From contig JAZDEL010000006.1 in NCBI GenBank assembly GCA_043808785.1, forward strand, positions 81,831 through 113,830: a stretch of DNA of 32,000 nucleotides, read 5' to 3'. Position 1 is the stretch's first letter; each line of letters opens with the position of its first letter. Position numbers and translations under genes: made by a program. This stretch comes from Candidatus Iainarchaeum sp. (GTDB lineage: Archaea > Iainarchaeota > Iainarchaeia > Iainarchaeales > JAZDEL01). Under the pieces are notes generated by a model, which made no database searches, was not told the origin of the DNA, and saw nothing but the letters and a program-made list of their open reading frames with translations. Shown here piece by piece: positions 2,776 to 30,651 of this stretch.

Positions 2776-2777
2776 AG

Positions 2778-4727: not shown

Positions 4728-4728
4728 G

Positions 4729-6190: not shown

Positions 6191-6191
6191 T

Positions 6192-9817: not shown

Positions 9818-9842
9818 ATGCCCACCGGTTATTAATGTTCAA

Positions 9843-11893: not shown

Positions 11894-11921
11894 GCGAAAC
11901 CACGCCGCGGTTTTTTTATTT

Positions 11922-17692: not shown

Positions 17693-19054
17693 ATGCTTAT
17701 GGGCTTCCTTGATTCCCTCCTTGATTTCCTGAACTCGATTTTCGGCAGGCGCCCGCAGCGCGGCGCAGCTGCAAGGCAGATTGTCCAGCGCGCGAAGCCC
17801 GTTACTCTGGAAGAGGCGCGGCAGCTCGCGGAGGAAAAATCCAAAACAAGCTTCGACGAATTGGAACGCGTAGCCTTTGCGCGCTTTGCGGAGATAAAGC
17901 ACCTCCTCACGGAAATAAAAAACGAGCTCAATAATTTCGAGTCCCGCAACCTCGAGGAGGAGGAAGGGAACCAGCGCCTTCGCAAAATTGTGGAAACAAG
18001 CAAGCGCAACCTCACAAGGCAGATGCACACACTCGCGGAAAAACTATCCCCTCCAGAATCGCACGAGTATGCAGTGCTCCGCCAGTACTGCCTCAACTCA
18101 AGCGCAATCCTTTCCGAGGAAGTGAACACCTTCGGCAGGAACGTGATGTACACAGGCATCCTTATGAAAAAAGAGGTGAAAAACCTCGGCGGATATATAA
18201 ATGAACTTAACACAATCTTCCTCGGCCTTAAAACAATGTTCGAGTCCGGCGGCACGGGAAAGGCGCTCTCGGCAAAAAGCAGCCTTAAGCAATTGCAGCG
18301 CGCACTCGACGAAAGGGAACTGATCCTCAAGGACGCGAGAGCGGTTAAAGGGCACCTTGCAGCGCTCACGGAAGAAAGGCGTGCAAAGGAAGCCGCATTA
18401 AGCGCAACGCGTGATTCTGCTGACGCAAAGGAACTCGGCGTGCTGGAGGCAAAAAAGGCAAGCCAATTGAGGGAAAAACAGGAACTCAAAAACAAGTTCA
18501 TAAATCTCCTTGCGCCCATAGACAGGCCGCTGAACAGGTTCATGAAGCTTGCTGAAAGCGGCGCATACCCGCTCAGCGACGCCGAGCGCGCCCTCCTTAA
18601 CGCATACATGACAAACCCTTTCCACGCGGCAAAGCAGGACCCCAAGGCGCAGATGCTGAAGAAAATGCTCAAGGAAGTCGAAAACCTCGTGCATGAGGAG
18701 AAGATAAAGCTCAAGGAAAAGGAAGCCGCAAAAATGCTGCGCTCAATAGCCGAACTGCAGGACTATGATTTCTTCGGAGAACTTTTCTGGAGGCTCAACT
18801 CAATAGATGTCGAACTCATTGCAACGGAAAAAAGCATAGCCACCTCAAAGGCGGGTTCCGCAATAATGGCGCTCGAGCGCGAGATAAGGAACCTGGACAG
18901 GGCATACTCCGAGCAGGGTGCACTCCTTAAGGCGGAGGAGCAGAAACTCCTTTCAAAGGACGATGAAATCGCCGGCTTCAGGGAAAGCGCGGAAACCATG
19001 CTGCAGGGCCTTGCGGGAACGCCAGTTGCGATAAAAGTCCCTGCCGATAGCTAA
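17693..19054 (+). CDS. long coiled-coil protein with N-terminal amphipathic helix; function unknown
   Basis: 453 aa, rich in E/K/L/A. The N-terminus is MLMGFLDSLLDFLNSIFGRR. The 347 aa antisense ORF (17671-18714) is S/F/L-rich, which is typical of a shadow frame. Confidence 0.6.
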   Translation: MLMGFLDSLLDFLNSIFGRRPQRGAAARQIVQRAKPVTLEEARQLAEEKSKTSFDELERVAFARFAEIKHLLTEIKNELNNFESRNLEEEEGNQRLRKIVETSKRNLTRQMHTLAEKLSPPESHEYAVLRQYCLNSSAILSEEVNTFGRNVMYTGILMKKEVKNLGGYINELNTIFLGLKTMFESGGTGKALSAKSSLKQLQRALDERELILKDARAVKGHLAALTEERRAKEAALSATRDSADAKELGVLEAKKASQLREKQELKNKFINLLAPIDRPLNRFMKLAESGAYPLSDAERALLNAYMTNPFHAAKQDPKAQMLKKMLKEVENLVHEEKIKLKEKEAAKMLRSIAELQDYDFFGELFWRLNSIDVELIATEKSIATSKAGSAIMALEREIRNLDRAYSEQGALLKAEEQKLLSKDDEIAGFRESAETMLQGLAGTPVAIKVPADS

Positions 19055-19088
19055 AGCCCGCGGAAATTTAAAACTAAATCAGGCGCGC

Positions 19089-19862
19089 CTACTCTATCTT
19101 CACAACCTTGTCGCAGAACTGGCTTATTGTCTGCAGTATCCCCGAATACTCGTCCGAGCGCACGAAGATAAGCACGCCCTTGACCCTGTTCTGGTTTGCT
19201 TTCCCTATAAGCGAATGCGTGAACTTCTTCACACCCTCCGCGGAATTATACACAAGCAGCGTTGATACGGAATCCAGAATAAGGAATTTCTTGTTCTGCT
19301 GTATTGCGCCCATTTTCTTCTCAATTGCAAGCATAAGGTCCGTAAGTTCCGCAGCGGAATTTATGTATGTGACATTCCGCTCCCTTAGCATGACCCCTTC
19401 GGACATCCTTGTGACTACATCTATGAAATCTATGCCCTCCCACTTGATGCCGCGCTTCTCAAGCTCCTCTTTCGTTTTTTCGTAGCTCTTGTTCACGCAG
19501 ACATATACGCCAGGCATTTTCTCCGCATTGACGAAACGCCTGAGCAGGCCTATCCTCATTTCCCCGTATTCCTCCGGCTCGACAATGGCAAGCACGCAGT
19601 AGTTCCCCTTGAGGTCGCCGAGCCCCCTCTCGATCTTGACATCCATTTTCGAATCAGGGCTGAGCAGGCGCCTTACCTGCTCGTCCTCTATGTCATCCAT
19701 ATTTTCGAGGTCCAGCAGTTCGGCCGCGGCCGCCCGTTTTAATTTCGCGGCATCGCCAAAAACTTTTGGCGCCCCTTCTTCGGCCTTCTTGCCCGCCGCC
19801 TGCCCGGCATTTTTTCCCGAACCCTTTGCCGCGGCCTTTTCACTAACCTTTGCCGCAGGCAT
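19089..19862 (-). CDS. KaiC/RecA-fold paralogue without Walker A (DUF835/MEDS-like), with basic disordered N-terminus
   Basis: 257 aa. No GxxGxGK[ST] motif. It keeps a Walker-B-like strand, FLILDSVSTLLVYNS..KFTHSLIGK, paralogous to ORF 20778-21731. Its start overlaps the stop of the upstream KaiC-like gene (TGATG). Confidence 0.55.
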   Translation of the reverse strand: MPAAKVSEKAAAKGSGKNAGQAAGKKAEEGAPKVFGDAAKLKRAAAAELLDLENMDDIEDEQVRRLLSPDSKMDVKIERGLGDLKGNYCVLAIVEPEEYGEMRIGLLRRFVNAEKMPGVYVCVNKSYEKTKEELEKRGIKWEGIDFIDVVTRMSEGVMLRERNVTYINSAAELTDLMLAIEKKMGAIQQNKKFLILDSVSTLLVYNSAEGVKKFTHSLIGKANQNRVKGVLIFVRSDEYSGILQTISQFCDKVVKIE

Positions 19863-20647
19863 CAGCCCACTTCCTCGAACAGTTCGGCCTTTGTGAGAAC
19901 CTTTACCCCGTTGTCGGTTATTTGTATTGGTTTCAGCTGTTCCGATATTTCAGTGTTCCGCATCTTCAGTATGCCTATGCTCCTCACAAACCTGTTCCTT
20001 AGCTTGGTGTGGTATAAAAGCAGCACCCCGTCGGCAACATATTCCTCGAGCCCGTAAAGGCTCTGCGTTTTATCCAGTGAAATCTCGCTTGTTATTATGG
20101 TTGTGCAGCCTATCCTCTTGAACATTTTCCCGAGGGAAACAATCCTCTTCCTTGCCTCGAGTTCCCTGTCGAAAAACAGCTTGAAAATTACGCCAGGGTC
20201 TATTACGACCCTTACGGCATTTATGCTCGCCACCGTGTCCTCGACAGCGTTCTTCAGCCTTTCAAAATCGTAAAGTTCTATGGTTATTATCTTCAGCTTC
20301 TCCTGGTCGATAAGTTCCTTAATGTCCATGCCGAACTCGAGCGCGCCGCTCACAATCGCGTCTTCGGTTTCCTCAAGGCTGACATAAACGCCGCTTTCGC
20401 CGTATTTCTTCGCACCCTCGTAAAGGAACTGCAGGCAGAAAACGGTTTTCCCCGAACCGGGGTCGCCACTCAGCACGACAAGGTTCCCCCGCGGTATGCC
20501 CCCTCCTATCATTTCATCAAGCCCGGGTATGCCGGAAAACGTCCTCTCCACAACGCACTTTCCGTCCTTCATACTTATGTTTAGCCTCCTCCCCCCTGGC
20601 TTTTCTGCAGCCGGCTTCGGCGCCCTTTCCGCGGTTTTCTCCTTCAT
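19862..20647 (-). CDS. single-domain KaiC-like (RecA-superfamily) ATPase
   Basis: FSGIPGLDEMIGGGIPRGNLVVLSGDPGSGKTVFCLQFL (Walker A)...RVVIDPG...YVADGVLLLY...RSIGILKMRNTE. The ATG at 20647 lies 26 nt downstream of TATATAAA. The track start at 20716 is TTG. Confidence 0.85.
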   Translation of the reverse strand: MKEKTAERAPKPAAEKPGGRRLNISMKDGKCVVERTFSGIPGLDEMIGGGIPRGNLVVLSGDPGSGKTVFCLQFLYEGAKKYGESGVYVSLEETEDAIVSGALEFGMDIKELIDQEKLKIITIELYDFERLKNAVEDTVASINAVRVVIDPGVIFKLFFDRELEARKRIVSLGKMFKRIGCTTIITSEISLDKTQSLYGLEEYVADGVLLLYHTKLRNRFVRSIGILKMRNTEISEQLKPIQITDNGVKVLTKAELFEEVG

Positions 20648-20672
20648 GCTTGCAATATTATGGCTGATGGGG

Positions 20673-20680
20673 TTTATATA
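20673..20680 (-). promoter_or_regulatory. TATA box (TATATAAA on the minus strand) for the KaiC-like/partner bicistron; leaderless geometry
   Basis: Read directly from the sequence. Its 3' end is 26 nt from the ATG at 20647. Confidence 0.5.
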
Positions 20681-20721
20681 GTTAATTCCGCGGTTTTTTC
20701 CGCAGCCCGCGCCCAAAATTG

Positions 20722-20738
20722 CAAACGTTTTTATATTT
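20722..20738 (+). promoter_or_regulatory. BRE/TATA-like CAAACGTTTTTATATTT upstream of ORF 20778
   Basis: The TATA lies ~40 nt upstream of the ATG, with AAGGTG 8 nt before the ATG. The 14 nt core is identical to the one at 22924-22937 on the other strand. Confidence 0.5.
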
Positions 20739-20777
20739 GCGGTGCGTTATCTTGTTCAGCGGCTTTAAGGTGCCCCC

Positions 20778-21731
20778 ATGCTGACACTTTTAATAATCCC
20801 GAACAAGGAATACCAGGAGGACGTGATGCGCCTCGCAAAGCAGCTGGGCGCGCGCTATGAAAAAATATGCTATGTCAGCCTCAACGAGCTCTACGGCTCC
20901 CTGAAAAAAACTTTTGTCAGGAACGGCATACCCGTGCAGAAATTTTTTGTGGTTGACGCAATAACCCGCAGGACAGACGCATGCAGGAAGCCCGAAGGCG
21001 GCTGCGTTTTCGTCAGTTCGCCCAACTCCCTCATCGAGCTCAGCCTTGCCATAACCGGCGCAATGCGCGCCCAGGGCTCGCAGCTGATGCTTTTCGATTC
21101 CGTCTCAACACTGCTCATTTATGAATCCGTGGACATAGTGACAAAATTCATGCATTCGCTTGTCGGCAAGGTAAAGGAAGCGGGGGCCGACAGCATTTTC
21201 ATCGCCCTGCAGAGCGACATAAACAGCGAAACAGTAAAGGACCTCGAGATGTTCGTCAATGAAACCATCACGATGGACGAGTACAATGTCAGGAACGAGA
21301 TGAAGGAGAAAGCCACGCAGCGTACCCGGATTTCGCAGGTGCCGAAGCCAAATCCCGCAAAGCGGCCAAAACTCGCCCTTAACCCTGGAATGATCGAGGT
21401 CGGGGGCAAGCCTGTGGAAGTTCCCGCAAAGCCGACACTGCCCAGGCCCGCGCCGGTGCCAAAGCCCGCCGTTCCACAAATGCATACGCCCGCGGAAAAG
21501 CCGAAACCGGCCCAAGTGCCAAAGCCTGTGCAGTTCCCGGCGCAGCGGCGGCCAACCGAACCAGCGGCAGCCGTAGCGCAAGCGCCAAAGCCCGCGCAGC
21601 CGCCAAAGAAGCCGCGCGCAAAAAACGGCGTTCCGCAAGCAGTGCGGTCGGAAGAAGAAACGCGGAGTGAAGAAGAGCCGCATGGCGAAGGCGAACCGCG
21701 GGGTGAAGAAGAAAATAAGCAGTACGGCTAA
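20778..21731 (+). CDS. KaiC/RecA-fold paralogue without Walker A (DUF835/MEDS-like), with long Pro/Lys-rich then acidic C-terminal tail
   Basis: 317 aa. The N-terminal ~170 aa are paralogous to ORF 19089-19862 (LMLFDSVSTLLIYESVDIVTKFMHSLVGK). The tail reads PKPNPAKRPK...PAPVPKPAVPQ...KPKPAQVPKPVQFP...PKPAQPPKKPRAK...EEETRSEEEPHGEGEPRGEEE. Confidence 0.6.
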   Translation: MLTLLIIPNKEYQEDVMRLAKQLGARYEKICYVSLNELYGSLKKTFVRNGIPVQKFFVVDAITRRTDACRKPEGGCVFVSSPNSLIELSLAITGAMRAQGSQLMLFDSVSTLLIYESVDIVTKFMHSLVGKVKEAGADSIFIALQSDINSETVKDLEMFVNETITMDEYNVRNEMKEKATQRTRISQVPKPNPAKRPKLALNPGMIEVGGKPVEVPAKPTLPRPAPVPKPAVPQMHTPAEKPKPAQVPKPVQFPAQRRPTEPAAAVAQAPKPAQPPKKPRAKNGVPQAVRSEEETRSEEEPHGEGEPRGEEENKQYG

Positions 21732-21768: not shown

Positions 21769-22899
21769 TTACCTGAACAGTTCCTGGTCTATGTAAACCT
21801 CTATCCCCCGCCCCGTGATTTTGTAGGGCACAATTTTCTTGTCGTGGTTCGATGACCTCAATTTGAGTATCTCGAGCCCGCGCTCCCTCATGTTGTGTAT
21901 GCGTATGTTGTAAAGCACAATGACCCCGTCGGCAAGGAACTCCTCAATGCCGCTCCTGCTGTATACGCCCGGTTCCTGTTCCGTCTCCCCCAGCACTATG
22001 TTCACAGAATTGTATTTCTCAAGCGTTTCGAACAGGTGCCTCAAATACTGCCTGTAAGCCTGCTCATTCTCCATGAACGCAATGCTCAGCGCAGAAAGCG
22101 AGTCGACAACAACCCTGTCAGGCCTGAAAGGCAGGTTCAGCTTGAATGGCAGTTCGATATCGTCGACATCTATATACAATCCGCCGCGCTCCTTTGTAAG
22201 CATCGCCTCCACAGCCCGTGCAATTGTAAGCGGGTCCTGCTTTAGTATTAGCAGTTTGCCCTCGTCCTCCATCCTGTACAAATCCCAGCCGAAGTTCTGC
22301 AGCAGGTTCTCCTTCATTTTTTCCGCGCTCTCCTCAAGGGTTATGTAAACGCAGTGCTCGCCGTGCAGCGCCGCATTGTAAAGCGACTGCATAGCAAATG
22401 TTGTCTTCCCCGTGCCGCACCCCCCGGAAAGCAGTATTGTGTCCCCGCGCTTAAGCCCGCCCCTCTCCACAAGCTTGTCGAAATCGCTCACCCTCAGCGG
22501 CATTATCTCCCTGAACTGCGCCTTTCCCCTACCGCTTGGAAGTTCCGTGTAAGCAATGCCCTTAACCGCACCGCCAGCAGTGTTCCCCGCCGCAGCCACG
22601 TATTCGTAGGTTTGCCCTTCCGCCCCCTCCCCACGCCACTGCCCGCCATCCTCGCCACCGACTATTTTTTCCCTTATTTTCCCGAGCTCGCCCTTCGGCT
22701 TCATGAATCCCGCAAAAAGCCCGCCAAGAACCCCCTTTCCCCTCCCCTTTTCCGCAACAGCCTTTGCCCCCTTTATTATCTGCCCGGCCTCCTCATCGGA
22801 CAGCCCGGCTTCCACAAGGCTTGCCTCAATCTCGGCATCATGTACGCCCTCCTTCAGCATCCTGCCCGCGGCAGAGCGCAGTATCTCGTTTTTTCCCAT
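21769..22899 (-). CDS. KaiC-like ATPase with ~150 aa N-terminal extension (small helical module plus Gly-rich linker)
   Basis: GDTILLSGGCGTGKTTFAMQSLY (Walker A)...RVVVDSLSALSIAF (Walker B)...FLADGVIVLYN...LEILKLRSSNH. The N-terminus reads MLKEGVHDAEIEASLVEAGLSDEEAGQIIKGA. Confidence 0.85.
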   Translation of the reverse strand: MGKNEILRSAAGRMLKEGVHDAEIEASLVEAGLSDEEAGQIIKGAKAVAEKGRGKGVLGGLFAGFMKPKGELGKIREKIVGGEDGGQWRGEGAEGQTYEYVAAAGNTAGGAVKGIAYTELPSGRGKAQFREIMPLRVSDFDKLVERGGLKRGDTILLSGGCGTGKTTFAMQSLYNAALHGEHCVYITLEESAEKMKENLLQNFGWDLYRMEDEGKLLILKQDPLTIARAVEAMLTKERGGLYIDVDDIELPFKLNLPFRPDRVVVDSLSALSIAFMENEQAYRQYLRHLFETLEKYNSVNIVLGETEQEPGVYSRSGIEEFLADGVIVLYNIRIHNMRERGLEILKLRSSNHDKKIVPYKITGRGIEVYIDQELFR

Positions 22900-22923
22900 A
22901 GCACATGATAACTGCTCTATTTG

Positions 22924-22937
22924 TATAAAAACGTTTG
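22924..22937 (-). promoter_or_regulatory. BRE/TATA-like CAAACGTTTTTATA, 25 nt upstream of the ATG at 22899 (leaderless geometry)
   Basis: The minus strand reads GAACAAACGTTTTTATACAAATAG. The core is identical to 20722-20735. Confidence 0.5.
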
Positions 22938-23035
22938 TTCAGGCTCCCGCAGGCTGCGCGCGCAGAACCGAAGGCAGCCGGCAAAACCCGCGCACATTTT
23001 CCGCCTTTGCGCCCGCGCCAGGAATGCCGAGGCGG

Positions 23036-24262
23036 TTATTTCCCCCCTTTCTTCCCCCGCGTGCCCAGTTCCTCAATCCTCTCCTCGATCCTCGTTATCC
23101 TCGCCTTGTATTCCGCAAGCATTTTCTTGTACGCCTTTGCAGGCATTATGCCCTTCCTGAAATATTCGTCCTGCAGCGATTTCATGAGTTCCGAGTTTTT
23201 CGCCCATTCCGCCTCGAGCGACTCGAGCTCGCCGCCCCTTTTTGCCCTGCCGTAAATCCGTGCGGCAATAAATGCGAGCGCCGCAACCAATGCAATTATG
23301 TACGCCGCATATGTTGAAACAAACCACTCCGCCCAGCCTGTTGCAACAGCGTTCACAATCGCCGAACCGGAATTTCCCGCACTGTCCGCAGCGCGTATCT
23401 CGATGCCCATTGCGCCCTCATCCCCGCCCACGGTCATTAAAACTCCGGAATAATCGCCGTTCTCATCCCGCGTGAGTGCGGTTTCCCTGCCGTTAAGGGT
23501 TGCGGAAACAACCGTGCCGCTTGCAGCATCCGCGGCCTTGCCCCCGGAATAACTGGCCCCGACTTTCAGGGGAATTCCCGAACCGAGGCTGAACGACCTT
23601 GCCTTCGGCTCTATAATCTCTATGCCAAGCGCCGCCTTTTCAATTGCAAGCCCTATTGCCGTCTCGCCGCCGCGCTTTTCAGCACCGCTTCCGCTCTCCG
23701 CAACCACAATAACGCTCCACTTTCCCTCCGATGCATCGTAAGGAATTTCGTAATCGAGGTGGTAAATTCCGTTCCCCCTGTTTTCAAGCATTGTCTTTTC
23801 CCCCACGGCATTCCATGTGAAAACCCTGCCGTCGGCAACCCCCTCCCCCGAATCCGTTACCTTCACGCTTATTGTAATGCCCCCCGCCCTTTCATAACTC
23901 CCCCCGGGCGGGCTGAGGAACCTTATTACGTAATATGCGGATTCGTGCACCTGCGCAATGCTCAGCCTTGCTTCCGCAAGTTCCCCGCGGTTTTCAAGGA
24001 AAATTTCCCACTGCCCCGAAGGGTCGAGGTAACCTGTTTCATAACTTGTTTTGAAATATCCCGCCCCTTCGCACACAACCTCGCGCTCGAAAACAACCGC
24101 CCTTTCCCTTGCCGCATACAGCCTGTTTTTTCCCTCCGAGCAGAGCCCCTCTATTGAAATAACTTCCCCCTTTGCGTAAACCTTCTTGTCCGTGGCAATA
24201 TTGAGCGCGGAAACCTGCGCAGCGGCAAAAACCAGCACGGCAATAACCGCCGCAACCCTCAT
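23036..24262 (-). CDS. secreted single-pass membrane protein: signal peptide, beta-sandwich (MG/Ig-like) ectodomain, TM helix, short helical cytoplasmic tail
   Basis: Start chosen at MRVAAVIAVLVFAAAQVSA (ATG 24262, GGGGG 3 nt upstream). TDKKVYAKGEVISIEG is an MG-like strand motif. TM segment is YAAYIIALVAALAFIAARIY. Tail is LQDEYFRKGIMPAKAYKKMLAEYKARI. Confidence 0.7.
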   Translation of the reverse strand: MRVAAVIAVLVFAAAQVSALNIATDKKVYAKGEVISIEGLCSEGKNRLYAARERAVVFEREVVCEGAGYFKTSYETGYLDPSGQWEIFLENRGELAEARLSIAQVHESAYYVIRFLSPPGGSYERAGGITISVKVTDSGEGVADGRVFTWNAVGEKTMLENRGNGIYHLDYEIPYDASEGKWSVIVVAESGSGAEKRGGETAIGLAIEKAALGIEIIEPKARSFSLGSGIPLKVGASYSGGKAADAASGTVVSATLNGRETALTRDENGDYSGVLMTVGGDEGAMGIEIRAADSAGNSGSAIVNAVATGWAEWFVSTYAAYIIALVAALAFIAARIYGRAKRGGELESLEAEWAKNSELMKSLQDEYFRKGIMPAKAYKKMLAEYKARITRIEERIEELGTRGKKGGK

Positions 24263-24278
24263 AGCCCCCGCGCCCAAT

Positions 24279-26039
24279 TCAACGCCCCCTCTCCTTCTCA
24301 ATCTCGGCCTTGTATTTGCCTTCAAGCCCATAATATTCTTCCGCATTCATCGCGCCTTTAAAGTATCTCGCCTGCACGCCTTTAATCTTTTCCTCAAGTT
24401 CCATGGTGCGCCGGTTTCTGGCATTCAATTCCGCAGTGCGTTTTCCCCTTATGAACGTTCGCAGAGCCGCGTATGCCGCAATGCAAAGTGCCGAAACCCC
24501 CGCAAACACAACAACCGGCTGTAACCCTGGTTCAGGCCCTGCGTTTCCCGCAACCTCAACATTATCCCTGGCGCCTTCGCATCCGAACTCCGTGCACAGG
24601 CTTGCAAATTCAATTTCCACGGCAGCCCTGCCCTCCTGCCTCGCCCCTTCCACGTTTTTCACGGCAATAACCCGGCAATCCCCAAACTTTCCACCCTCGA
24701 AATCGGCTGCCCCTGAAAACAAATACCTCCCCCACGCAACCTCCCTAAGTTCGGCGGTGCTGCCGTCTGGATACACGAGCAGTACCTTTGCGCCGTCCAC
24801 TGCGCCGAAGTTCTCGTCAGTTACATCAACAGTGAATTCTATCTTCTCCCCCTCGGCGTAACTTCCATTTTTCAGCCCGCCGATGTCCAGGTTCAGGAAC
24901 GATTTAACCTCTGCAGGGAACATGAATATGCCCTCAACCGCACTTTCGGGGTATTCCCCGCCCTCTTCCCCCATCCCCGATGCGATTATCCTCAGCATTC
25001 CCTCTGGGCTCGCATCCGTGCCCCTATATTCCGCCGCGAACCCCCCATCCACACCGCTCTCCGTCCGCGCGCGCCATACTGCAAAAGCCCCGTTGTTAAT
25101 TTCCAGTTCAAGTTCTGCCGCAATTCCCTTCCCGCCCTTTACAACAGTGCCGCTTATTTTCACCGTGTCGCCCTTTGTGTAATTCTTCCTGTCCGCAGAA
25201 ACGGTTATGTAGAAATCAGGCCTTATTTCATACACACGCTCAGCATGTGCCCTCGCACCGGCAAATTCCGCGTCGATCCCGACAATGTGCGCACCGTATT
25301 CCGCATCCTCGGGCACAATGCCGCTGTTGCCGTACACATTGTCGTTCTCGGCCCCGTCATTGTGCGCGCCGTCGTTGTAAAGCTTCAGTTCCCCGAAAAA
25401 CCCGTTCGCATTCACATCCGCACCGCTCACCCCGAACTCTCCGGCATAAACCGCGGCAGAAATAATGATTTTCCCCCCATGCCATAAATCCGTATTTTCA
25501 TCCCCGAGAATCTCGGCCCTTATCGCCTTTGCGCCGCAATCCGCACCGCAGCTCCCGTAATCCTCCCCCTTCTCGCACCTTGCGTTGCCGCAGCACGCGC
25601 TCGCGCTTACCGCCGCGCATTCCGCACCTATGCACGCCCTTTCCTTGCACTCGCCCGGCAGGGCGCCGGAGCACGAGCCGCAGTCCTGCGGGCAGGTGCA
25701 CGGCGTTTCCCCCACCGAAGCCCTGCACTCCGCGTCCCCGCAGCCTTCCAGGCTGCGGCACTCGGCACTGCAGCCGCCCTTTCCCGCGCAAACATCCGTT
25801 GTTGCGGCAATGCCGTCATCGCAGTCCGCGTCGCCCCTGCACGCAACACTGCACTCCGAATGCGAGCAGTACGCCCCGCAATCCCCCGCACCTATGCACG
25901 CGTCGGTTGTGAGCGGGCTGGCATCATCGCACTCTGCGGATGAAGTGCATGCAGGCACGCATTCCGCATTCGAGTAAACGAAAAAAACCTGCAGTGCACA
26001 AAGCATCAGCAGTACGGCCGCAACATGCCATGTTTTCAT
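24279..26039 (-). CDS. secreted single-pass membrane protein with Cys-rich N-terminal repeats; paralogue of ORF 26036-28171
   Basis: 586 aa. Signal peptide MKTWHVAAVLLMLCALQVFF. About 30 Cys in the first 170 aa, in repeated C..C...(A/D)CDD....T.D.C.G...C units. Motif FFGELKLYNDGAHNDGAEND. TM segment VVVFAGVSALCIAAYAAL. Tail VQARYFKGAMNAEEYYGLEGKYKAEI. ATGA overlap with the upstream paralogue. Confidence 0.75.
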   Translation of the reverse strand: MKTWHVAAVLLMLCALQVFFVYSNAECVPACTSSAECDDASPLTTDACIGAGDCGAYCSHSECSVACRGDADCDDGIAATTDVCAGKGGCSAECRSLEGCGDAECRASVGETPCTCPQDCGSCSGALPGECKERACIGAECAAVSASACCGNARCEKGEDYGSCGADCGAKAIRAEILGDENTDLWHGGKIIISAAVYAGEFGVSGADVNANGFFGELKLYNDGAHNDGAENDNVYGNSGIVPEDAEYGAHIVGIDAEFAGARAHAERVYEIRPDFYITVSADRKNYTKGDTVKISGTVVKGGKGIAAELELEINNGAFAVWRARTESGVDGGFAAEYRGTDASPEGMLRIIASGMGEEGGEYPESAVEGIFMFPAEVKSFLNLDIGGLKNGSYAEGEKIEFTVDVTDENFGAVDGAKVLLVYPDGSTAELREVAWGRYLFSGAADFEGGKFGDCRVIAVKNVEGARQEGRAAVEIEFASLCTEFGCEGARDNVEVAGNAGPEPGLQPVVVFAGVSALCIAAYAALRTFIRGKRTAELNARNRRTMELEEKIKGVQARYFKGAMNAEEYYGLEGKYKAEIEKERGR

Positions 26040-28171
26040 TTTTCACCGCCCCCTTTCCCCGCAGCCCAGCGCCCGCCCTGCGCCCCTCTGGCGTCGCAGG
26101 CGCTGCCCTGCACATTTCCCGTACCGCTCTTCTTCCCCGTGCCCTTGCCGTTTCCCGCCCCTATGAGTGCCAGCGATTTCCTCACATCATCGAGTTCCGT
26201 TTCGCACTCCCCCACAAGCCTGTCGTAATTCGCCTTGTCAAGCGTCGCCTCCCTGAAGAACTGCCTCTGAAACCCCTTAAGTTCGCCAAGCAGCTGCCGC
26301 TCCCTGTTCTTCAGTGTGCCTATCTGCGCACTGCGCCTTTTTGCATAAATAACCGTTGCAGTGGCGACAGCGGCAACAAGCAGAGCCACGATTATGTGCC
26401 CGATATAGCTGCGCAGGTAATGCCATGCGGAAACCCCGGCTATTTCGAACTGCACGCTTCTCGTGCCGCTGTTCCCATATGCATCCTCCGCAGCCACGCC
26501 GAATTCCGCAAGCCCGACATCCTCCGCCCTCACCACATAGCTGCCGGCGTAGACCCCGCGCTCGCTGCTCACCATCCCCACGCCTGTGCCGTTTACGTTC
26601 GCGTCAACCTCGGCGTTTGTTACCGGCTTCCCGTCAGGGTAACTGAGCATTAGCCTGAAATTAATCTGCTCCCCCGCCTCAAAAGTCCTGCCTGCTGGCT
26701 CGGCAACATCTATGGTGAGTGCAGCGGGCTCGACATAAATGTCAAACGAAAACGAACCGCCGTAAACGGTGTTCCTGTCGCTTTTCACGCCGCGGATTTC
26801 GAGAGAATTCTTTCCCACTGGAAAATCCCAGCCGAGGATTATCCTGTTCGAATAAATCCCGCGTACAGCCTCCTTGAACTCGGTCGATTTTCCCGCAGGG
26901 GACAGTAGTGTCGCCTTTGCGCCGCTTATCCCGCTGCCTTCAGCACTCTCGAGCGCCACATTCAGGTCTACGGTATCCCCCCGTTCGTATGCCTTCGCGA
27001 GCCCGTTGAGCACCCGTATCTCAAGCTGGGACGTCGCCTCCGGGCTTATTACCGTGATTTCTTTTTCCGCCGCGCCGACATTGTTTTTCCCATCCCTGCA
27101 CCATATCGACGCAACCCATTTTCCCGTGGGGTTAAGCAGGGTTGTGTGGTATTCCGCACCGAAATTTCCGCCCGCGTCGCTCCGCACTGTGCCCTGCCAC
27201 ACAACACCGCCCCTTGCAAGCAGATTCAGGTCAACGGCGGTTTCAACGCCGACACCGTGCTTCTTTACGGTTCCGCTGATTTTTATTATGTCCCCGGCGC
27301 TGTATTTTTCCCTGTCGGTTTCAAGGGCAACCCCGAGTTCCGCCCTGACAACCGCGGTTTTCGTAATTTTTCCGGTTGCCCCCGCAAACTCCGCCGAAAC
27401 CTCGATATCGTATTCCCCTGCCGCGGCATCGTCCACGAGCGCAACCGAATTTCCGTACCTGCCGTCGTTCTCGGTTCCGTCATTGTGCGCGCCGTCGTTG
27501 TAAAGCTTCAGTTCCCCGAAAAAACCCCTTGCAGTTACCTTCGCCCCGGCAGCCTTTGTTCCGTCGGCAGCCACGCTAACCACAATATCCATTCTGTCGC
27601 CGCGCGCATAGTAATCCTGCCATTCGCCGACAAAAGCGATTTCTACATTTGCAGGCATGCAATCCGCGCTGCAGTTCGCATATTTTTCCCCGGCTTCACA
27701 CCTCCCGTTCCCGCAGCACCCGAGCATTATCGTGCTCACGCACTGCTTCCCCACGCACGCCTTCTCGCCGCACACCCCGGCCTGGGTTTCGCCGCAATCC
27801 CCGCAGTCCTGCGGGCAGGTGCACCTTGTCTCCTCGGCGCTTTCATCGCAGACCCCGTCCCCGCACCCGGAAAGGTGGAAACACGCAGCCTCGCACCTTC
27901 TCGCCCCGGCACACACGTCCTTTGTCGCCGCAACCTTGTCATCGCAATCCGCATCTGTTTTGCACAGCGGCATGCAGTTCAGGTTCGCGCACCCGCTTTC
28001 GCACGTTCCTGTGCGGAAGCAGAGGTCCCACGTATCCGGGTTTCCGTCGTTGCACGCCGCGTCGCTTGAGCACACTATTGCACACTCCTCCGCGTAAGCC
28101 GCCCCCGCGCAGGCAATGGCGACTGCGATAAGCGCCGCCGGAAGCAACAGCCGTGCCGAATCTAAGTTCAT
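26036..28171 (-). CDS. secreted single-pass membrane protein with Cys-rich N-terminal repeats and several beta-sandwich domains; paralogue of ORF 24279-26039
   Basis: 711 aa with the same architecture. Signal peptide LLLPAALIAVAIACAGAAYA. Contains CTCPQDCGDC and FFGELKLYNDGAHNDGTEND. TM segment IIVALLVAAVATATVIY. Tail FQRQFFREATLDKANYDRLVGE, followed by a Gly/Lys-rich end. Confidence 0.75.
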   Translation of the reverse strand: MNLDSARLLLPAALIAVAIACAGAAYAEECAIVCSSDAACNDGNPDTWDLCFRTGTCESGCANLNCMPLCKTDADCDDKVAATKDVCAGARRCEAACFHLSGCGDGVCDESAEETRCTCPQDCGDCGETQAGVCGEKACVGKQCVSTIMLGCCGNGRCEAGEKYANCSADCMPANVEIAFVGEWQDYYARGDRMDIVVSVAADGTKAAGAKVTARGFFGELKLYNDGAHNDGTENDGRYGNSVALVDDAAAGEYDIEVSAEFAGATGKITKTAVVRAELGVALETDREKYSAGDIIKISGTVKKHGVGVETAVDLNLLARGGVVWQGTVRSDAGGNFGAEYHTTLLNPTGKWVASIWCRDGKNNVGAAEKEITVISPEATSQLEIRVLNGLAKAYERGDTVDLNVALESAEGSGISGAKATLLSPAGKSTEFKEAVRGIYSNRIILGWDFPVGKNSLEIRGVKSDRNTVYGGSFSFDIYVEPAALTIDVAEPAGRTFEAGEQINFRLMLSYPDGKPVTNAEVDANVNGTGVGMVSSERGVYAGSYVVRAEDVGLAEFGVAAEDAYGNSGTRSVQFEIAGVSAWHYLRSYIGHIIVALLVAAVATATVIYAKRRSAQIGTLKNRERQLLGELKGFQRQFFREATLDKANYDRLVGECETELDDVRKSLALIGAGNGKGTGKKSGTGNVQGSACDARGAQGGRWAAGKGGGEK

Positions 28172-28200
28172 TCAAATTCCCATTATATAATTAGGTTGTA

Positions 28201-28210
28201 TTATTTATAT
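28201..28210 (-). promoter_or_regulatory. TATA-like ATATAAATAA ~30 nt upstream of the ATG at 28171
   Basis: AT-rich 44 nt spacer between the PGM stop and the first surface-protein gene. A second TTATATAA lies closer, at 28183-28190. Confidence 0.4.
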
Positions 28211-28215
28211 GTTGT

Positions 28216-29616
28216 CTAAGGCAGTTCCAGCCTTGCTTCAGAAACCGCATTCAGCCTTTTCATGAAATCTTCCTTGATTTCCCCGAGCGCCTTTTCGCTC
28301 TTCGCCTCGAACCTGAGTATGAGTTTCGCCTGCGTGTTGGAAGCGCGCAGCAGAGCCCAGCCCTCGGGGTAAAGAACTCGCACACCATCTATGTCTATGA
28401 CCCCCAGTTCCGCGTCCTTTCCGAACTCCTCCTTTGCCCTCTCAACCAGCCCGAACTTCTTCCCCTCGGGATAATCCACGCGTATTTCGGGCGTGCTGAA
28501 ATATTCGGGGAACTGCCCGAAAATTTCACTCACAGTTTTTCCGCTTGCCGACAAAATCTCCAAAAAACGCGCCGCCACATAAAAGCCGTCGTCAAACCCT
28601 AACCAGCGGTCCTTGAAAAATATGTGCCCCGACATCTCGCCGGAAATCGGCGCGCCTGTTTCGCGCAGTTTCGCCTTGCTCAGCGAGTGCCCGGTTTTCC
28701 ACATGAGGGGCACGCCGCCGTTCGCTTCAATAACCTCGGGCAGAGCCTGCGAGCACTTCACGTCGAAAATAATCGTCTCGCCCCTTTTGCGCGAAAGTAT
28801 CTCCTTTGCAAACAGCATCATCAGCCTGTCAGCCCACACTATCTTGCCGTTCTCGTCTATTATGCCGACGCGGTCAACGTCGCCGTCGAAGCCCAAACCC
28901 ACATCAGCCTTCGTTTCCTTTACCTTTTCCGCAAGAGCGCGCATGTATTCGGGTATTGTCGGGTCCGGCAAGTGATTGGGGAACCTGCCGTCAAGTTTGC
29001 AGTACAGGGGAACAACTTCGCACCCCAACTTTTTCAGCAATTTCGGGGCAATCTCGCTCGCCATCCCGTTTCCCGCATCAACCGCAACCTTCAGCCCGCG
29101 CCCGAGTTTAACCCTGCCCGCGATTTCATTTATGTAAACCGGAACCATGTTTTTCTTTTTTATTTTTCCGCGTTTTTTTGTTTCGATGTAATCGCCGCCC
29201 TCAATTATCCCGCGCAGTTCCTGTATCTCATCCCCGTAAATGGTTTTTTCCCCGATGTTTATCTTCAGCCCGTTCATCCCCAAAGGGTTGTGTGAGCCCG
29301 TGACATTAATCCCGCCCGCAGACTTCAGCTTTATTATCGAATAATACATCATCGGCGTCGGGCTCAATCCCAAATCAACAACATCAATCCCGCACGCGGT
29401 TATGCCCTTTACAAGCGCCTTGTGTATCCGCACCGAGGATGCGCGCACATCCCTTCCGACAACAACAAACCCCGCCTTGGGATTTTTGGTTTTCAGGTGT
29501 GTCGCATATGCTTTGCCAATAGCCTCGACAACCTCGGCAGTCAGTTCCTTCCTGTCGTCGCCCCTTATGTCATACTCCCTGAAAATCTGCGGATTGAACT
29601 TCACAGGCGCGGGCAT
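28216..29616 (-). CDS. phosphoglucomutase/phosphomannomutase family protein
   Basis: 466 aa. REYDIRG, active-site loop GINVTGSHNPLGMNGLK, metal-binding GLGFDGDVDRVG, and GEMSGHIFF. Confidence 0.9.
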   Translation of the reverse strand: MPAPVKFNPQIFREYDIRGDDRKELTAEVVEAIGKAYATHLKTKNPKAGFVVVGRDVRASSVRIHKALVKGITACGIDVVDLGLSPTPMMYYSIIKLKSAGGINVTGSHNPLGMNGLKINIGEKTIYGDEIQELRGIIEGGDYIETKKRGKIKKKNMVPVYINEIAGRVKLGRGLKVAVDAGNGMASEIAPKLLKKLGCEVVPLYCKLDGRFPNHLPDPTIPEYMRALAEKVKETKADVGLGFDGDVDRVGIIDENGKIVWADRLMMLFAKEILSRKRGETIIFDVKCSQALPEVIEANGGVPLMWKTGHSLSKAKLRETGAPISGEMSGHIFFKDRWLGFDDGFYVAARFLEILSASGKTVSEIFGQFPEYFSTPEIRVDYPEGKKFGLVERAKEEFGKDAELGVIDIDGVRVLYPEGWALLRASNTQAKLILRFEAKSEKALGEIKEDFMKRLNAVSEARLELP

Positions 29617-30336: not shown

Positions 30337-30646
30337 CCGAAAAGAACAAGTGGGGGTTATTAAGGGAAGTGCAAAGCACTTTCGGGTTCCGCAGAACCCG
30401 AAGGCGCACCTCCCTGTAATAACACAGTGGTGCCGGAGTTAGCCGCAAGGTTCCGGGGAACCGCGGCTTGGCCTGCCAACACCGTTATTGCATACGCCAC
30501 GCTGGTTAATGATTTTTCACTCTACGCTTCCCGAACCTTTTTCCCGCAAGCGAAAGCGGATTCCGAACCGCGCAAAAGCACGGGCTGCACAGGCAAAATC
30601 CCGAACAGCACGGAATTTATTACGTTCCGCATAATTGTTCTTTCGG
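30337..30646 (+). ncRNA. candidate structured non-coding RNA or element (~310 nt), identity unresolved; SRP/7S-like features are weak
   Basis: The ends are complementary: CCGAAAAGAACAAG (30337-30350) pairs with TTGTTCTTTCGG (30635-30646). Internal hairpins include GGAAGUGC-AAA-GCACUUUC, UUCGGGUUC-CGCA-GAACCCGAA, GCCGC-AA-GGUUC-CGGG-GAACC-GCGGC and CGGAA-N9-UUCCG. A CCCUGUAAU motif is present. No credible CDS. Strand is uncertain. Confidence 0.3.
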
Positions 30647-30651
30647 TCCCG

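What the first reader, a model, noticed from the sequence alone, without database searches (positions are those of the whole stretch)
23036..28171. Three tandem paralogous secreted single-pass proteins share a cytoplasmic tail motif and sit directly upstream of a KaiC-like ATPase
**Observed in sequence.** Three co-directional genes encode proteins of 408, 586 and 711 aa; the first two overlap by ATGA. All three share one architecture: a signal peptide, an ectodomain of MG/Ig-like beta-sandwich repeats (D[RK]xxY[STA]xG[DE]..[KS]I[SE]G strands), one TM helix, and a 40-80 aa cytoplasmic tail. The two larger proteins also carry a ~170 aa head with ~30 Cys in repeated C....(A/D)CDD....T.D.C.G..C units, plus CTCPQDCG(S/D)C.

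**Tail motif.** The tails are otherwise diverged but share a helical motif: LQDEYFRKGIMPAKAYKKML, VQARYFKGAMNAEEYYGLEGKY and FQRQFFREATLDKANYDRLV. This pattern resembles SHOCT-type short helical modules. It also loosely resembles the N-terminal module of the downstream KaiC-like ATPase (MLKEGVHDAEIEASLVEAGLSDEEAG).

**Inference.** The layout suggests surface receptors or adhesins whose conserved cytoplasmic tails could couple to the adjacent KaiC/partner ATPase module, giving an outside-in signalling or envelope-remodelling system. I cannot match this combination to any named system.
Basis: partly seen in the sequence, partly recalled or inferred. Interest (0 to 1): 0.78.

Follow-up and report, generated by a model that had tools for sequence, protein, structure and literature searches.

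The report
Surface-protein pair wired to KaiC ATPase
Three neighbouring genes of a tiny DPANN archaeon encode related cell-surface proteins that share a conserved short tail inside the cell, and in related archaea such proteins almost always sit next to one dedicated KaiC-type ATPase, which points to an undescribed module linking the cell surface to the cytoplasm.

Summary
Window 23036-28171 (minus strand) encodes three paralogous type-I membrane proteins of 711, 586 and 436/408 aa. Each has a signal peptide, macroglobulin-type beta-sandwich domains, one TM helix and a cytoplasmic helical hairpin with the motif Q-x-x-[YF]-F-x9-Y. The two larger ones also carry a 27-Cys head. A KaiC-like ATPase lies 136 nt downstream.

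New here:
- **Family size.** The proteins belong to a large unannotated family (442 clusters at E<=1e-30) of Iainarchaeota/Diapherotrites and Micrarchaeota. The tail motif is the second most conserved segment.
- **Gene pair.** Members normally occur as a large + small tandem pair.
- **KaiC link.** One dedicated KaiC clade flanks the pair in 16 of 18 informative loci, in either gene order and in at least eight different flanking contexts.
- **Reciprocal test.** All 6 informative metagenome loci with a KaiC at least 50% identical carry the family. None of 71 loci with more distant KaiCs do.

The Walker-A-less partners are lineage-specific.

Best reading: a surface receptor or adhesin pair whose tails engage a KaiC hexamer. 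Binding and direction of signalling are inferred, not shown.

The parts
26036..28171 (-). Large paralog, 711 aa. It has a signal peptide, a Cys-rich head, an array of MG-type beta-sandwich domains, a TM helix and a cytoplasmic helical-hairpin tail.
   Evidence: ORF. Pfam MG2 E=4e-9. AF2 pLDDT 87.7. Foldseek to C3/A2M MG arrays at E about 1e-17. Identical to NCBI V1676_05115, annotated 'hypothetical protein'.
27659..28084 (-). Cys-rich head of the 711-aa protein (residues 30-171, 27 Cys). It consists of two C-x-s-D-x-D-C-D-D...T-x-D-x-C repeats plus the conserved neck CGDGxC..E..CxCPxDCGxC...CCGNxxCExxE....CxxDC.
   Evidence: Cys positions. The neck is the most conserved region of the family, 46% mean pairwise identity. 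Head-only AF2 pLDDT 90.1. No significant PDB fold match, best E=0.95.
26342..26404 (-). TM helix of the 711-aa protein (residues 590-610), followed by KRR.
   Evidence: Hydropathy. AF2 predicts a continuous helix 590-639.
26183..26269 (-). Tail motif of the 711-aa protein: QRQFFREATLDKANYDRLVGECETELDDV. It spans the end of helix 1, the turn and the start of helix 2.
24279..26039 (-). Middle paralog, 586 aa. It has the head and first MG domains like the 711-aa protein, a shortened C-terminal ectodomain, a TM helix (24462-24524) and a tail. Its start overlaps the 711-aa stop by ATGA.
   Evidence: A comparable third paralog (860 aa) is present in L007.
24288..24374 (-). Tail motif of the 586-aa protein: QARYFKGAMNAEEYYGLEGKYKAEIEKER.
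23036..24346 (-). Small paralog, 436 aa (alternative start at 24262 gives 408 aa). It has MG-type domains homologous to the C-terminal 400 aa of the large paralog, a TM helix (23261-23323) and a tail. It has no Cys-rich head.
23087..23173 (-). Tail motif of the small paralog: QDEYFRKGIMPAKAYKKMLAEYKARITRI. This is the acidic 'small-type' variant.
22900..23035 (-). 136-nt spacer between the small paralog and KaiC. It carries a TATA-like TTTTTATACAAATA about 20-32 nt before the KaiC ATG, so KaiC may have its own promoter in this genome.
   Evidence: Read directly from the sequence. The promoter function is an inference.
21769..22899 (-). Single-domain KaiC-like ATPase, 376 aa, of the clade dedicated to this module. 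It has Walker A GGCGTGKT (159-166), LEE (188-190), VVVDS (263-267), an insertion GGLYI..ELPF..LPFRPD, and a lineage-specific N-terminal helical module (residues 1-50).
   Evidence: Pfam PF06745 E=8e-51. PDB KaiC E=2e-53. Clade alignment. Motifs.
28172..28215 (-). AT-rich region upstream of the 711-aa gene with TATA-like elements (ATATAAATAA, TTATATAA). It is the probable promoter of the three-gene unit.
   Evidence: Read directly from the sequence. This is an inference.
17693..21731 (.). Lineage-specific accessory block: DUF7504 / inactive KaiC-like (20778-21731, +), a second KaiC (19862-20716, -), DUF7504 (19089-19862, -) and a 453-aa coiled-coil protein (17693-19054, +). It is conserved with the module only in close relatives.
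   Evidence: Pfam. Same block in L001, L080 and L135. No such block in L128, L130, L132 or L133; L129 and L134 carry only separate DUF7504/DUF835-like genes some kb away.

Best explanation
The window holds one copy of a conserved, so far undescribed envelope module of Iainarchaeota/Diapherotrites and Micrarchaeota (DPANN archaea).

**Core of the module (shown).**
- A large type-I membrane protein. It has a disulfide-rich tip, a conserved Cys 'neck', and four or five macroglobulin-type beta-sandwich domains forming a stalk.
- A small paralog that has only the membrane-proximal domains.
- One dedicated clade of single-domain KaiC-like ATPase.
- This genome carries an extra middle paralog.

**Shared cytoplasmic tail (shown).** In both paralog types the TM helix runs on into the cytoplasm. 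It turns at the conserved Q-x-x-Y-F..G.[IL][SD][KR]..Y motif and returns as a second amphipathic helix, giving a helical hairpin.

**Proposed mechanism (inferred).**
- The large and small proteins pair in the membrane. Their tails differ systematically in charge next to the motif.
- The paired hairpins dock on the KaiC hexamer under the membrane.
- Binding or clustering at the tip would then be read out as a change in KaiC ATPase or autophosphorylation state (outside-in). The reverse is also possible: the nucleotide state of KaiC sets the conformation or clustering of the surface proteins (inside-out).
- Depending on the lineage, output would go to inactive KaiC-like proteins (DUF7504/DUF835), a second KaiC, response regulators, or a type-IV-pilus-like ATPase/platform pair found nearby.
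For: **Family and tail.**
- The profile search finds 1843 representatives at E<=1e-3 and 442 at E<=1e-30. Most match end to end, including the TM helix and tail.
- Nearly all of the top 150 carry the motif after a C-terminal TM helix.
- The tail motif is more conserved (33% mean pairwise identity) than the MG domains (25-30%) or the TM helix (16%). This argues for a cytoplasmic partner.
- AF2 predicts helix 590-639, a turn at 640-645 and helix 646-675, with pLDDT about 88-94.

**Pairing.** Large + small tandem pairs occur in L001, L007, L022, L033, L050, L060, L080, L111, L128, L129, L130, L132, L133 and L134. Position +2 after the motif Q is acidic in 10 of 13 small paralogs and in 0 of 20 large ones.

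**KaiC linkage, forward direction.**
- KaiC is next to, or within 3 kb of, the pair in 16 of 18 informative loci. The order is pair-KaiC in most and KaiC-pair in L022, L060 and L133. Start and stop codons often overlap (L001, L033, L132).
- Flanking genes differ between loci: PGM, NeuB-type sugar genes, RuvABC, DsbA, HK/RR, and T2SSE/F.
- Control: only 1 of 109 non-family loci (773 kb) contains a KaiC. At the tally then available (14/15 vs 1/109) Fisher p=2e-16.

**Dedicated KaiC clade.** The pair-adjacent KaiCs are 44-71% identical to each other and 24-33% identical to the second KaiC type. They share a specific insertion.

**Reciprocal test.** All 6 informative metagenome loci with a KaiC at least 50% identical to the window's carry family genes beside it. 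None of 71 loci with more distant KaiCs do.

**Background.** KaiC-family ATPases have been proposed as archaeal signal-transduction hubs and as regulators of T4P systems (PMC5847659, PMC4858521).
Against: - No direct evidence of tail-KaiC contact was obtained. No complex prediction could be run.
- In this window KaiC is separated by 136 nt with its own TATA-like element. Co-transcription here is therefore uncertain.
- Two family copies lack a KaiC neighbour. L008 lies in a genome that has a KaiC-linked copy elsewhere. L092 is a short contig with a TnpB-like gene downstream.
- In L004 and L131 the small paralog is missing.
- In L129 and L134 a 120-142 aa gene lies between the pair and KaiC. In L007 and L135 KaiC is on the other strand, about 3 kb away.
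- Several loci come from related lineages, so the 18 loci are not fully independent. About eight distinct flanking contexts were seen.
- The direction of signalling and the ligand are unknown.
Confidence: 0.5

Rival explanations
1. **Structural envelope scaffold.** The large and small proteins form an S-layer-like or stalk lattice, analogous to the Sulfolobales SlaA/SlaB pair. The KaiC-like ATPase would be an assembly, anchoring or quality-control factor that holds or remodels the tails, rather than a signalling device.
For: - The large + small tandem pair and C-terminal TM anchors recall two-component archaeal S-layers. The SlaA/SlaB model is cited in bioRxiv 10.1101/2021.04.28.441871.
- Neighbours are often sugar-activation or glycosylation genes: PGM/PMM in the window, L001, L007, L080 and L111, and NeuB/CMP-sugar genes in L128.
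- The heptad-like spacing of hydrophobic residues in both tail helices would allow oligomerisation.
Against: - There is no hit to any curated S-layer model.
- The Micrarchaeota S-layer protein described in the literature belongs to another family, with TIGR01564/01567-type domains.
- The window proteins have only 0-2 N-glycosylation sequons.
- A purely structural role does not explain a dedicated ATPase clade.
Confidence: 0.22
2. **Accessory of a type-IV-pilus-like machine.** The KaiC would act like ArlH of the archaellum, modulating a T2SSE/ArlI-type ATPase and T2SSF/ArlJ-type platform. The MG-tail proteins would be the envelope-spanning stator, collar or adhesin parts of that machine.
For: - T2SSE + 2xT2SSF lie directly downstream of family-KaiC in L004 and L131. 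They lie within 6-8 kb in L001 and L007. In L007 the KaiC closes a T2SSF-T2SSF-x-KaiC string. That is 4 of the 10 loci fetched with 10-kb flanks.
- KaiC-family ATPases are known to associate with archaeal T4P loci (PMC4858521).
- ArlH binds ArlI, and the interaction is regulated by phosphorylation (abstract of bioRxiv 10.1101/2021.03.19.436134, listed).
Against: - No T2SSE/F lies within 10 kb in L128, L129, L130, L132, L133 or L134, and none within the window.
- The KaiC scores 20 bits against the NCBIfam ArlH model, whose cut-off is 215.
- No pilin or archaellin genes were seen inside the module.
Confidence: 0.18
3. **Inherited gene order only.** The proteins are ordinary adhesins, the neighbouring KaiC has an unrelated job, and the tail is just a membrane-proximal oligomerisation helix.
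For: In the closest relatives the whole neighbourhood (CoaE, PPAT, PGM) is syntenic. For those loci synteny alone proves little.
Against: - Adjacency persists at 25-30% protein identity, with both gene orders and unrelated flanks.
- It is specific to one KaiC clade in the reciprocal test.
- The control frequency is 1 in 109.
Confidence: 0.06
4. **Protease trap.** The proteins are alpha-2-macroglobulin-like protease traps anchored in the membrane.
For: MG2 Pfam hit and Foldseek matches to C3 / alpha-2-macroglobulin MG arrays.
Against: There is no thioester CxEQ motif. No Pfam match to bait, thioester or receptor-binding domains. Only the MG beta-sandwich array is shared.
Confidence: 0.02

Closest known systems
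KaiC-like ATPase signalling hubs of archaea (Makarova, Galperin & Koonin 2017, as summarised in PMC5847659 and PMC4858521)
   Same: A single-domain KaiC/RecA-superfamily ATPase with intact Walker A/B and catalytic glutamates. It is encoded beside lineage-specific partner proteins and, in some loci, beside inactive KaiC-like domains (DUF7504/DUF835) and response regulators.
   Different: The partner is a pair of type-I surface proteins whose only cytoplasmic part is a 60-100 aa helical hairpin. No KaiB-like or other known partner was seen. I could not read the 2017 paper itself, so I cannot exclude that this neighbourhood is listed in its supplement.
ArlH-ArlI-ArlJ core of the archaellum and KaiC-associated archaeal type IV pili
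   Same: A KaiC-like ATPase lies next to T2SSE/T2SSF genes in a subset of loci (L004, L131, L007, L001). Beta-sandwich envelope proteins accompany the machine, as ArlF/ArlG do.
   Different: It is not an ArlH orthologue (20 bits against a cut-off of 215). T2SSE/F are absent from most loci. The surface proteins are anchored by a C-terminal TM helix rather than an N-terminal one, and no archaellin or pilin genes are present.
Alpha-2-macroglobulin / complement C3 MG-domain arrays (including bacterial alpha-2-macroglobulins)
   Same: A chain of MG-type beta-sandwich domains (Pfam MG2; Foldseek E about 1e-17 over about 450 columns).
   Different: It has no thioester, bait region or receptor-binding domain. 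It adds a Cys-rich head, a C-terminal TM helix and a conserved cytoplasmic tail.
SHOCT (PF09851) short C-terminal helical modules
   Same: A short C-terminal helix-turn-helix module after a membrane anchor, with a Gly-x-[IL]-[ST] turn and an aromatic residue 7 positions later. The SHOCT consensus used for this comparison is recalled from my own memory.
   Different: No HMM match at E<=10 in 58 tails. The hallmark Q-x-x-Y-F and the second and third conserved Tyr are not SHOCT features.
Sulfolobales SlaA/SlaB two-protein S-layer
   Same: A tandem large + small gene pair for envelope proteins, with a C-terminal TM anchor.
   Different: Here both proteins are anchored, they are paralogs of each other, and they carry a conserved cytoplasmic motif linked to an ATPase. 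No sequence relationship was detected.
Integrin alpha/beta heterodimers (functional analogy only, from general knowledge)
   Same: Two single-pass type-I proteins with beta-sandwich 'legs', Cys-rich repeats, and short conserved cytoplasmic tails that couple the outside to cytoplasmic proteins in both directions.
   Different: There is no homology. The pairing and the bidirectional coupling are hypotheses here.

Membership tests
KaiC family (PF06745), gene 21769-22899 | RecA-like KaiC core matching the family HMM over its full length | tested here: met
   PF06745 E=8.1e-51, profile positions 5-230 of 231. PDB KaiC chains match at E=2e-53.
KaiC family (PF06745), gene 21769-22899 | Walker A, catalytic glutamate pair and Walker B are intact | tested here: met
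   GGCGTGKT 159-166, LEE 188-190 and VVVDS 263-267. These positions are invariant in 11 clade members.
Cyanobacterial clock KaiC | Duplicated CI+CII domains, about 500 aa | tested here: not met
   There is a single KaiC domain at residues 137-372. The PDB matches align one half of the 519-aa KaiC.
Cyanobacterial clock KaiC | KaiB (and KaiA) partner encoded nearby | tested here: not met
   No KaiB/KaiA Pfam hit among the ORFs scanned in the window.
ArlH (archaellum KaiC-like protein) | Scores above the NCBIfam ArlH equivalog cut-off | tested here: not met
   NF052589 gives 20 bits against a cut-off of 215.
ArlH (archaellum KaiC-like protein) | Encoded with arlI/arlJ and archaellin genes | tested here: not met
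   No T2SSE, T2SSF or archaellin genes in the window. T2SSE/F lie near the module in only 4 of the 10 loci fetched with 10-kb flanks.
SHOCT (PF09851), the tails | Match to the SHOCT profile | tested here: not met
   No PF09851 hit at E<=10 for the three window tails or for 55 family tails. HMMER filters drop many hits above E about 0.1, so only a weak similarity could have been missed.
SHOCT (PF09851), the tails | Short helical module at the extreme C-terminus after a membrane or linker segment | tested here: met
   AF2 predicts a helix-turn-helix at 590-675 after the TM helix.
Alpha-2-macroglobulin / complement family | MG-type beta-sandwich domains | tested here: met
   MG2 at 37.2 bits (cut-off 32.8) in the 711-aa protein, 26.1 bits in the 436-aa protein, and none in the 586-aa protein. 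Foldseek E about 1e-17.
Alpha-2-macroglobulin / complement family | Thioester motif CxEQ and thioester domain | tested here: not met
   No C[GLA]EQ in any of the three proteins. No TED/A2M Pfam hits.
Archaeal S-layer protein families | Match to curated S-layer domain models (e.g. TIGR01564/TIGR01567) | tested here: not met
   No such hit in Pfam or NCBIfam.
New family proposed here (MG-stalk proteins with Q-x-x-Y-F tail) | C-terminal TM helix followed by Q-x-x-[YF]-[FY]-x9-[YF] inside a helical hairpin | tested here: met
   Present in all three window proteins and in orthologues. 111 of 152 listed members match the strict regex.
New family proposed here (MG-stalk proteins with Q-x-x-Y-F tail) | Conserved Cys neck CCGNxxCExxE....CxxDC before the first MG domain (large type only) | tested here: met
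   Present in the 711- and 586-aa proteins and invariant in A2/A3. Absent from the small paralog, as in all small-type members.
New family proposed here (MG-stalk proteins with Q-x-x-Y-F tail) | Adjacent KaiC of the dedicated clade | tested here: met
   In the window KaiC376 lies 136 nt downstream. 16 of 18 informative loci show the same. Reciprocal test 6/6 against 0/71.

The most novel reading that the evidence does not exclude
The module is an integrin-like, bidirectional adhesion receptor of DPANN archaea. A large/small heterodimer would bind the host or substrate with its disulfide-rich tip. Its affinity or clustering would be set from inside by ATP hydrolysis or autophosphorylation of a KaiC hexamer clamped on the paired tails, and the hexamer would in turn report contact to the cell. 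That would make a KaiC-family ATPase the motor or switch of host attachment in these episymbionts.
Probability: 0.15. Interest if true: 0.85.

Novelty: new variant of a known kind. Interest (0 to 1): 0.62.

Why it matters
**Open questions it touches.** DPANN archaea live attached to other cells, yet how they sense and hold on to a host is largely unknown. KaiC-like ATPases are the most expanded predicted signalling proteins of archaea, and outside the archaellum almost none has a defined partner.

**What this module offers.** It gives a concrete, testable pairing: one KaiC clade, plus two surface proteins whose only cytoplasmic part is a conserved hairpin of about 60 residues. If the tails do bind the KaiC, this would be a first example of a KaiC hub receiving input directly from a single-pass surface receptor. 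It would also give a handle on surface biology in two DPANN phyla.

**Annotation value.** The family is large (hundreds of 50%-identity clusters) and entirely annotated as 'hypothetical protein'. Defining it has immediate value for annotation.

Tried and rejected
- **Word-index homology searches were nearly blind to the family.** They returned 4, 2 and 4 hits. The third search, with alignment A2, added nothing. The exhaustive profile search was what revealed the family.
- **The search for related loci failed with the family alignments.** A2 and A3 had no stretch conserved enough. I replaced it with a degenerate DNA pattern for the Cys neck. That pattern also pulled in many unrelated DPANN, CPR and Myxococcota proteins, which then served as the control set.
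- **SHOCT membership rejected**.
- **Tail similarity to the KaiC N-terminal module rejected**.
- **No sequence match of the tail profile to solved structures.** The best hit was CdvA at E=0.09, which is not significant.
- **No fold match for the Cys-rich head**, and no Pfam family for it beyond two weak Dicty_CTDC hits.
- **Protease-trap (alpha-2-macroglobulin) reading rejected.** There is no thioester.
- **S-layer family membership rejected**.
- **The bacterial sigma-70 promoter and terminator scan gave nothing above shuffles**. It is not appropriate for an archaeon in any case.
- **The 2017 KaiC-hub paper is not held**. Literature searches found no description of this family.
- **No complex prediction was attempted.** The structure tool returns no contacts or PAE, so a tail-KaiC model could not have been evaluated.

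Full report
**Source and layout.** The 711-aa protein is identical to NCBI 'hypothetical protein V1676_05115' of a Candidatus Diapherotrites (DPANN) MAG, on a contig of 113,830 bp. Going downstream on the minus strand, the window carries:
- phosphoglucomutase/phosphomannomutase (28216-29616)
- the 711-aa gene (26036-28171)
- the 586-aa gene (24279-26039, start overlapping the 711-aa stop in ATGA)
- the small paralog (23036-24346, 436 aa, or 408 aa from 24262)
- a 136-nt spacer
- a KaiC-like ATPase (21769-22899, 376 aa)
- on the plus strand, a DUF7504 / inactive KaiC-like gene (20778-21731)
- a second KaiC (19862-20716)
- a second DUF7504 gene (19089-19862)
- on the plus strand, a 453-aa coiled-coil protein (17693-19054)

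- Paralogy: 711 vs 586 gives E=9e-93 over the N-terminal 414 residues. 711 vs 436 gives E=7e-29 over the C-terminal 400 residues, including the TM helix and tail. 586 vs 436 is weak.
- Each protein has an N-terminal hydrophobic signal-like segment ending in a small-x-small site. Each has one C-terminal TM helix followed by basic residues. The tails are about 101, 60 and 74 aa.
- The two larger proteins carry 26-27 Cys within about 145 residues.
- Pfam finds MG2 above threshold in the 711-aa protein.
- An AlphaFold2 model built on 54 family sequences is confident (mean pLDDT 87.7). It shows an all-beta ectodomain from residue 176 to 580. Foldseek matches this to the MG-domain arrays of complement C3/C4/C5 and alpha-2-macroglobulins at E about 1e-17 over about 450 columns.
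- There is no thioester motif. Only the stalk fold is shared with that family.
- The Cys-rich head, modelled alone at pLDDT 90.1, has no significant match among solved structures.
- One correction: the 72%-identical orthologue P0006 has Leu where the 408-aa form would start. The 436-aa start, which overlaps the 586-aa gene by 68 nt, is therefore more likely.

**The tail motif marks a large family.**
- Word-based searches found only two orthologues of the large protein and one of the small protein.
- An exhaustive profile search found 1843 representatives at E<=1e-3 and 442 at E<=1e-30. Most are about 600 aa long and match from the Cys neck through the TM helix to the end of the tail.
- Nearly all of the top 150 have a C-terminal TM helix followed by a 50-70 aa tail. 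Its consensus is L-Q-x-x-Y-F-x-x-G-x-[IL]-[SD]-[KR]-x-x-Y-x-x-L-[ML]-x-K-Y-E-x-E-L. Tyr at +3 is present in 94% and Phe/Tyr at +4 in 85%.
- In the 54-sequence alignment the motif region has 33% mean pairwise identity. Only the Cys neck is higher (46%). The MG domains have 25-30% and the TM helix 16%.
- AF2 predicts that the TM helix continues to the Y-F, turns, and returns as a second helix, giving a helical hairpin.
- All named members come from Diapherotrites/Iainarchaeum, Micrarchaeota/Micrarchaeia or an unclassified 'archaeon', and all are 'hypothetical protein'.
- No Pfam or NCBIfam model covers the head or the tail.

- Neither the three window tails nor 55 family tails hit SHOCT at E<=10.
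- A profile-profile comparison of the tail with the KaiC N-terminal module gives probability 0.04%.
- That N-terminal module exists only in the window, L001, L111 and L007 sub-lineage of the KaiC clade.

**Gene neighbourhood: what is conserved.** I collected contexts from assemblies that encode representatives, and from a degenerate DNA pattern for the Cys neck scanned over GTDB species genomes. Family members and neighbours were identified with HMMs in the sandbox.

Two regularities emerged. First, members come as a tandem large (about 600-1700 aa) + small (about 390-430 aa) pair. This holds in L001, L007 (three paralogs, as in the window), L022, L033, L050, L060, L080, L111, L128, L129, L130, L132, L133 and L134. 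Second, a KaiC-like ATPase flanks the pair. Its position varies:
- Directly downstream in the window, L001, L033, L080, L111, L128, L130 and L132.
- Downstream after one small gene in L129 and L134.
- Directly upstream in L022, L060 and L133.
- Directly after a lone large member in L004 and L131, followed there by T2SSE-T2SSF-T2SSF.
- About 3 kb away on the other strand in L007.

Gene boundaries often overlap (L001, L033, L132).

Two copies lack KaiC:
- L008 lies in a genome whose other copy, L004, has one.
- L092 is a 6-kb contig with a TnpB-like gene downstream.

This gives 16 of 18 informative loci. Among 109 control loci that share only the Cys motif (773 kb), one has a KaiC. At the interim tally of 14/15 against 1/109, Fisher p=2e-16.

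The flanking genes differ between groups of loci: PGM/CoaE/PPAT; prenyltransferase/DUF192; tRNA genes with HK/RR; RuvABC; DsbA; RadA/SpoIIM. There are therefore about eight independent contexts rather than 18.

**The KaiC is a dedicated clade.**
- Pair-adjacent KaiCs are 44-71% identical to one another and only 24-33% identical to the second KaiC type of the window.
- They share the insertion GGLYI..ELPF..LPFRPD and Walker A GG[CA]GTGKT.
- They are single-domain and have intact catalytic motifs.

**Reciprocal test.** A scan of metagenome contigs with the clade alignment returned 80 KaiC loci.
- Nine have a KaiC at least 50% identical to the window's. Three of these are cut at the KaiC gene.
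- The other six all carry family genes beside it (L135, L138, L139, L140, L142, L155).
- None of the 71 loci with more distant KaiCs carries a family member.
- The nearest sister KaiCs (39-48% identical) lie next to other single-pass surface proteins that lack the tail motif. Association with membrane-anchored surface proteins may therefore be a wider trait of this KaiC branch.

**What is lineage-specific.**
- The DUF7504 genes, the second KaiC and the coiled-coil protein follow the module only in close Iainarchaeal relatives (L001, L080, L135).
- T2SSE/T2SSF genes lie within 10 kb in L001, L004, L007 and L131, but not in L128, L129, L130, L132, L133 or L134.
- HK/RR genes with DUF835/DUF7504 follow the module in L129 and L134.
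- In the window itself the 136-nt spacer has a TATA-like TTTTTATACAAATA about 20-32 nt before the KaiC ATG. KaiC may therefore be transcribed separately here (inference).

**Mechanism.**
- Shown: the architecture, the family, the conserved hairpin tail, the large/small pairing of genes, and the reciprocal, clade-specific linkage to KaiC.
- Inferred, pairing: the large and small proteins associate. Their tails differ systematically. The residue two positions after the motif Q is acidic in 10 of 13 small paralogs and never in 20 large ones.
- Inferred, docking: the paired hairpins are the docking site for the KaiC hexamer.
- Inferred, function: the module couples events at the disulfide-rich tip to KaiC nucleotide or phosphorylation state, or the reverse.
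- Background: KaiC-family ATPases have been proposed as archaeal signalling hubs and T4P regulators (PMC5847659, PMC4858521). ArlH shows that a KaiC-like protein can act by regulated binding to a membrane machine (abstract of bioRxiv 10.1101/2021.03.19.436134, listed).

I put 0.5 on this reading.

**Rivals.**
- An S-layer-like scaffold with KaiC as an assembly or anchoring factor (0.22).
- An accessory of a T4P-like machine with an ArlH-like KaiC (0.18).
- Mere inherited synteny (0.06).
- A membrane-bound protease trap (0.02).

**Novelty.** I found no curated family, name or paper for these proteins or for their pairing with KaiC. I could not read the 2017 KaiC-hub paper or its supplements. 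I rate the finding a new variant of a known kind: a KaiC-centred module with a new class of partner. Interest is 0.62.

Noticed in passing
window 815-11144 (minus strand): A nearly complete archaeal-type mevalonate gene set lies in a DPANN genome. It comprises AcnX (815-2020), UbiD-like (2778-4085), UbiX-like flavoprotein (4134-4736), GHMP kinase (4729-5748), thiolase (7475-8653) with its OB/zinc-ribbon partner (5789-6211), HMG-CoA synthase (8771-9817) and HMG-CoA reductase (9843-11144). Many DPANN are thought to lack lipid precursor synthesis.
   Followed up: no
window 6192-7517 (minus strand): A 441-aa ORF with a LAGLIDADG_3 homing-endonuclease-like domain (E=2.3e-10) is wedged between the thiolase gene and its OB-fold partner gene. 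It overlaps the thiolase 3' end.
   Followed up: no
window 11171-14177 (minus strand): Pyruvate formate-lyase-like glycyl-radical enzyme (751 aa) together with its radical-SAM activase.
   Followed up: no
window 30427-31808 (plus strand); also L001, L002, L007: Bacterial-type dephospho-CoA kinase (CoaE) and phosphopantetheine adenylyltransferase-like genes. They are syntenic with PGM and the module in the close relatives.
   Followed up: no
window 17693-21731; L001 14471-18277; L080 2-2734; L135 3979-9500: A second conserved block: KaiC (284 aa), two DUF7504 proteins lacking Walker A, and a coiled-coil protein of about 450 aa on the opposite strand. It always lies beside the module in the Iainarchaeal sub-lineage but is absent elsewhere.
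   Followed up: partly
L059 4084-7778: A Micrarchaeia locus encodes a 977-aa protein with the Cys-neck motif. Its C-terminus looks like a DUF7504 / inactive-KaiC domain, and a KaiC gene follows directly. This would be a different way of wiring a surface protein to KaiC.
   Followed up: partly
L147 913-4327; L151; L153; L152/L188 about 6900-9970: Sister-clade KaiCs (39-48% identical) sit in another recurring arrangement: a surface protein with a C-terminal TM helix, a protein of about 280 aa with an N-terminal TM helix, KaiC, then a second KaiC. None of these surface proteins has the Q-x-x-Y-F tail.
   Followed up: partly
L009-L127 (pattern scan): The Cys module CCGNxxCExxE....CxxDC is not specific to the family. 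It also occurs in secreted proteins of Woesearchaeota, Aenigmatarchaeota, Nanoarchaeota, Altiarchaeota, CPR bacteria and Myxococcota.
   Followed up: partly
L130 17226-19388: RuvB, RuvA and RuvC genes, normally bacterial, lie directly beside a family-family-KaiC module. The contig may be bacterial, or the genes may have been acquired by transfer.
   Followed up: no
L132 5479-6261: A DsbA-like thioredoxin gene follows the module's KaiC. This would fit with oxidative folding of the disulfide-rich head.
   Followed up: no
L008 14942-16156; L092 979-2169: Both family copies that lack a KaiC neighbour have a TnpB/IS605-OrfB-like gene close by, which suggests rearrangement by mobile elements.
   Followed up: no
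L129 13646-14074; L134 5863-6225: A small 120-142 aa gene (weak Pfam TP_0179 hit) is inserted between the small paralog and KaiC in two loci. Both loci also carry HK/RR and DUF835/DUF7504 genes nearby.
   Followed up: no
window 21769-22899, residues 56-68 of KaiC376: After the N-terminal helical module, KaiC has a short hydrophobic Gly-rich patch, GVLGGLFAGFMKP. L001 has GILGGLFGGIIHP at the same place. This could be a membrane-associating segment.
   Followed up: no
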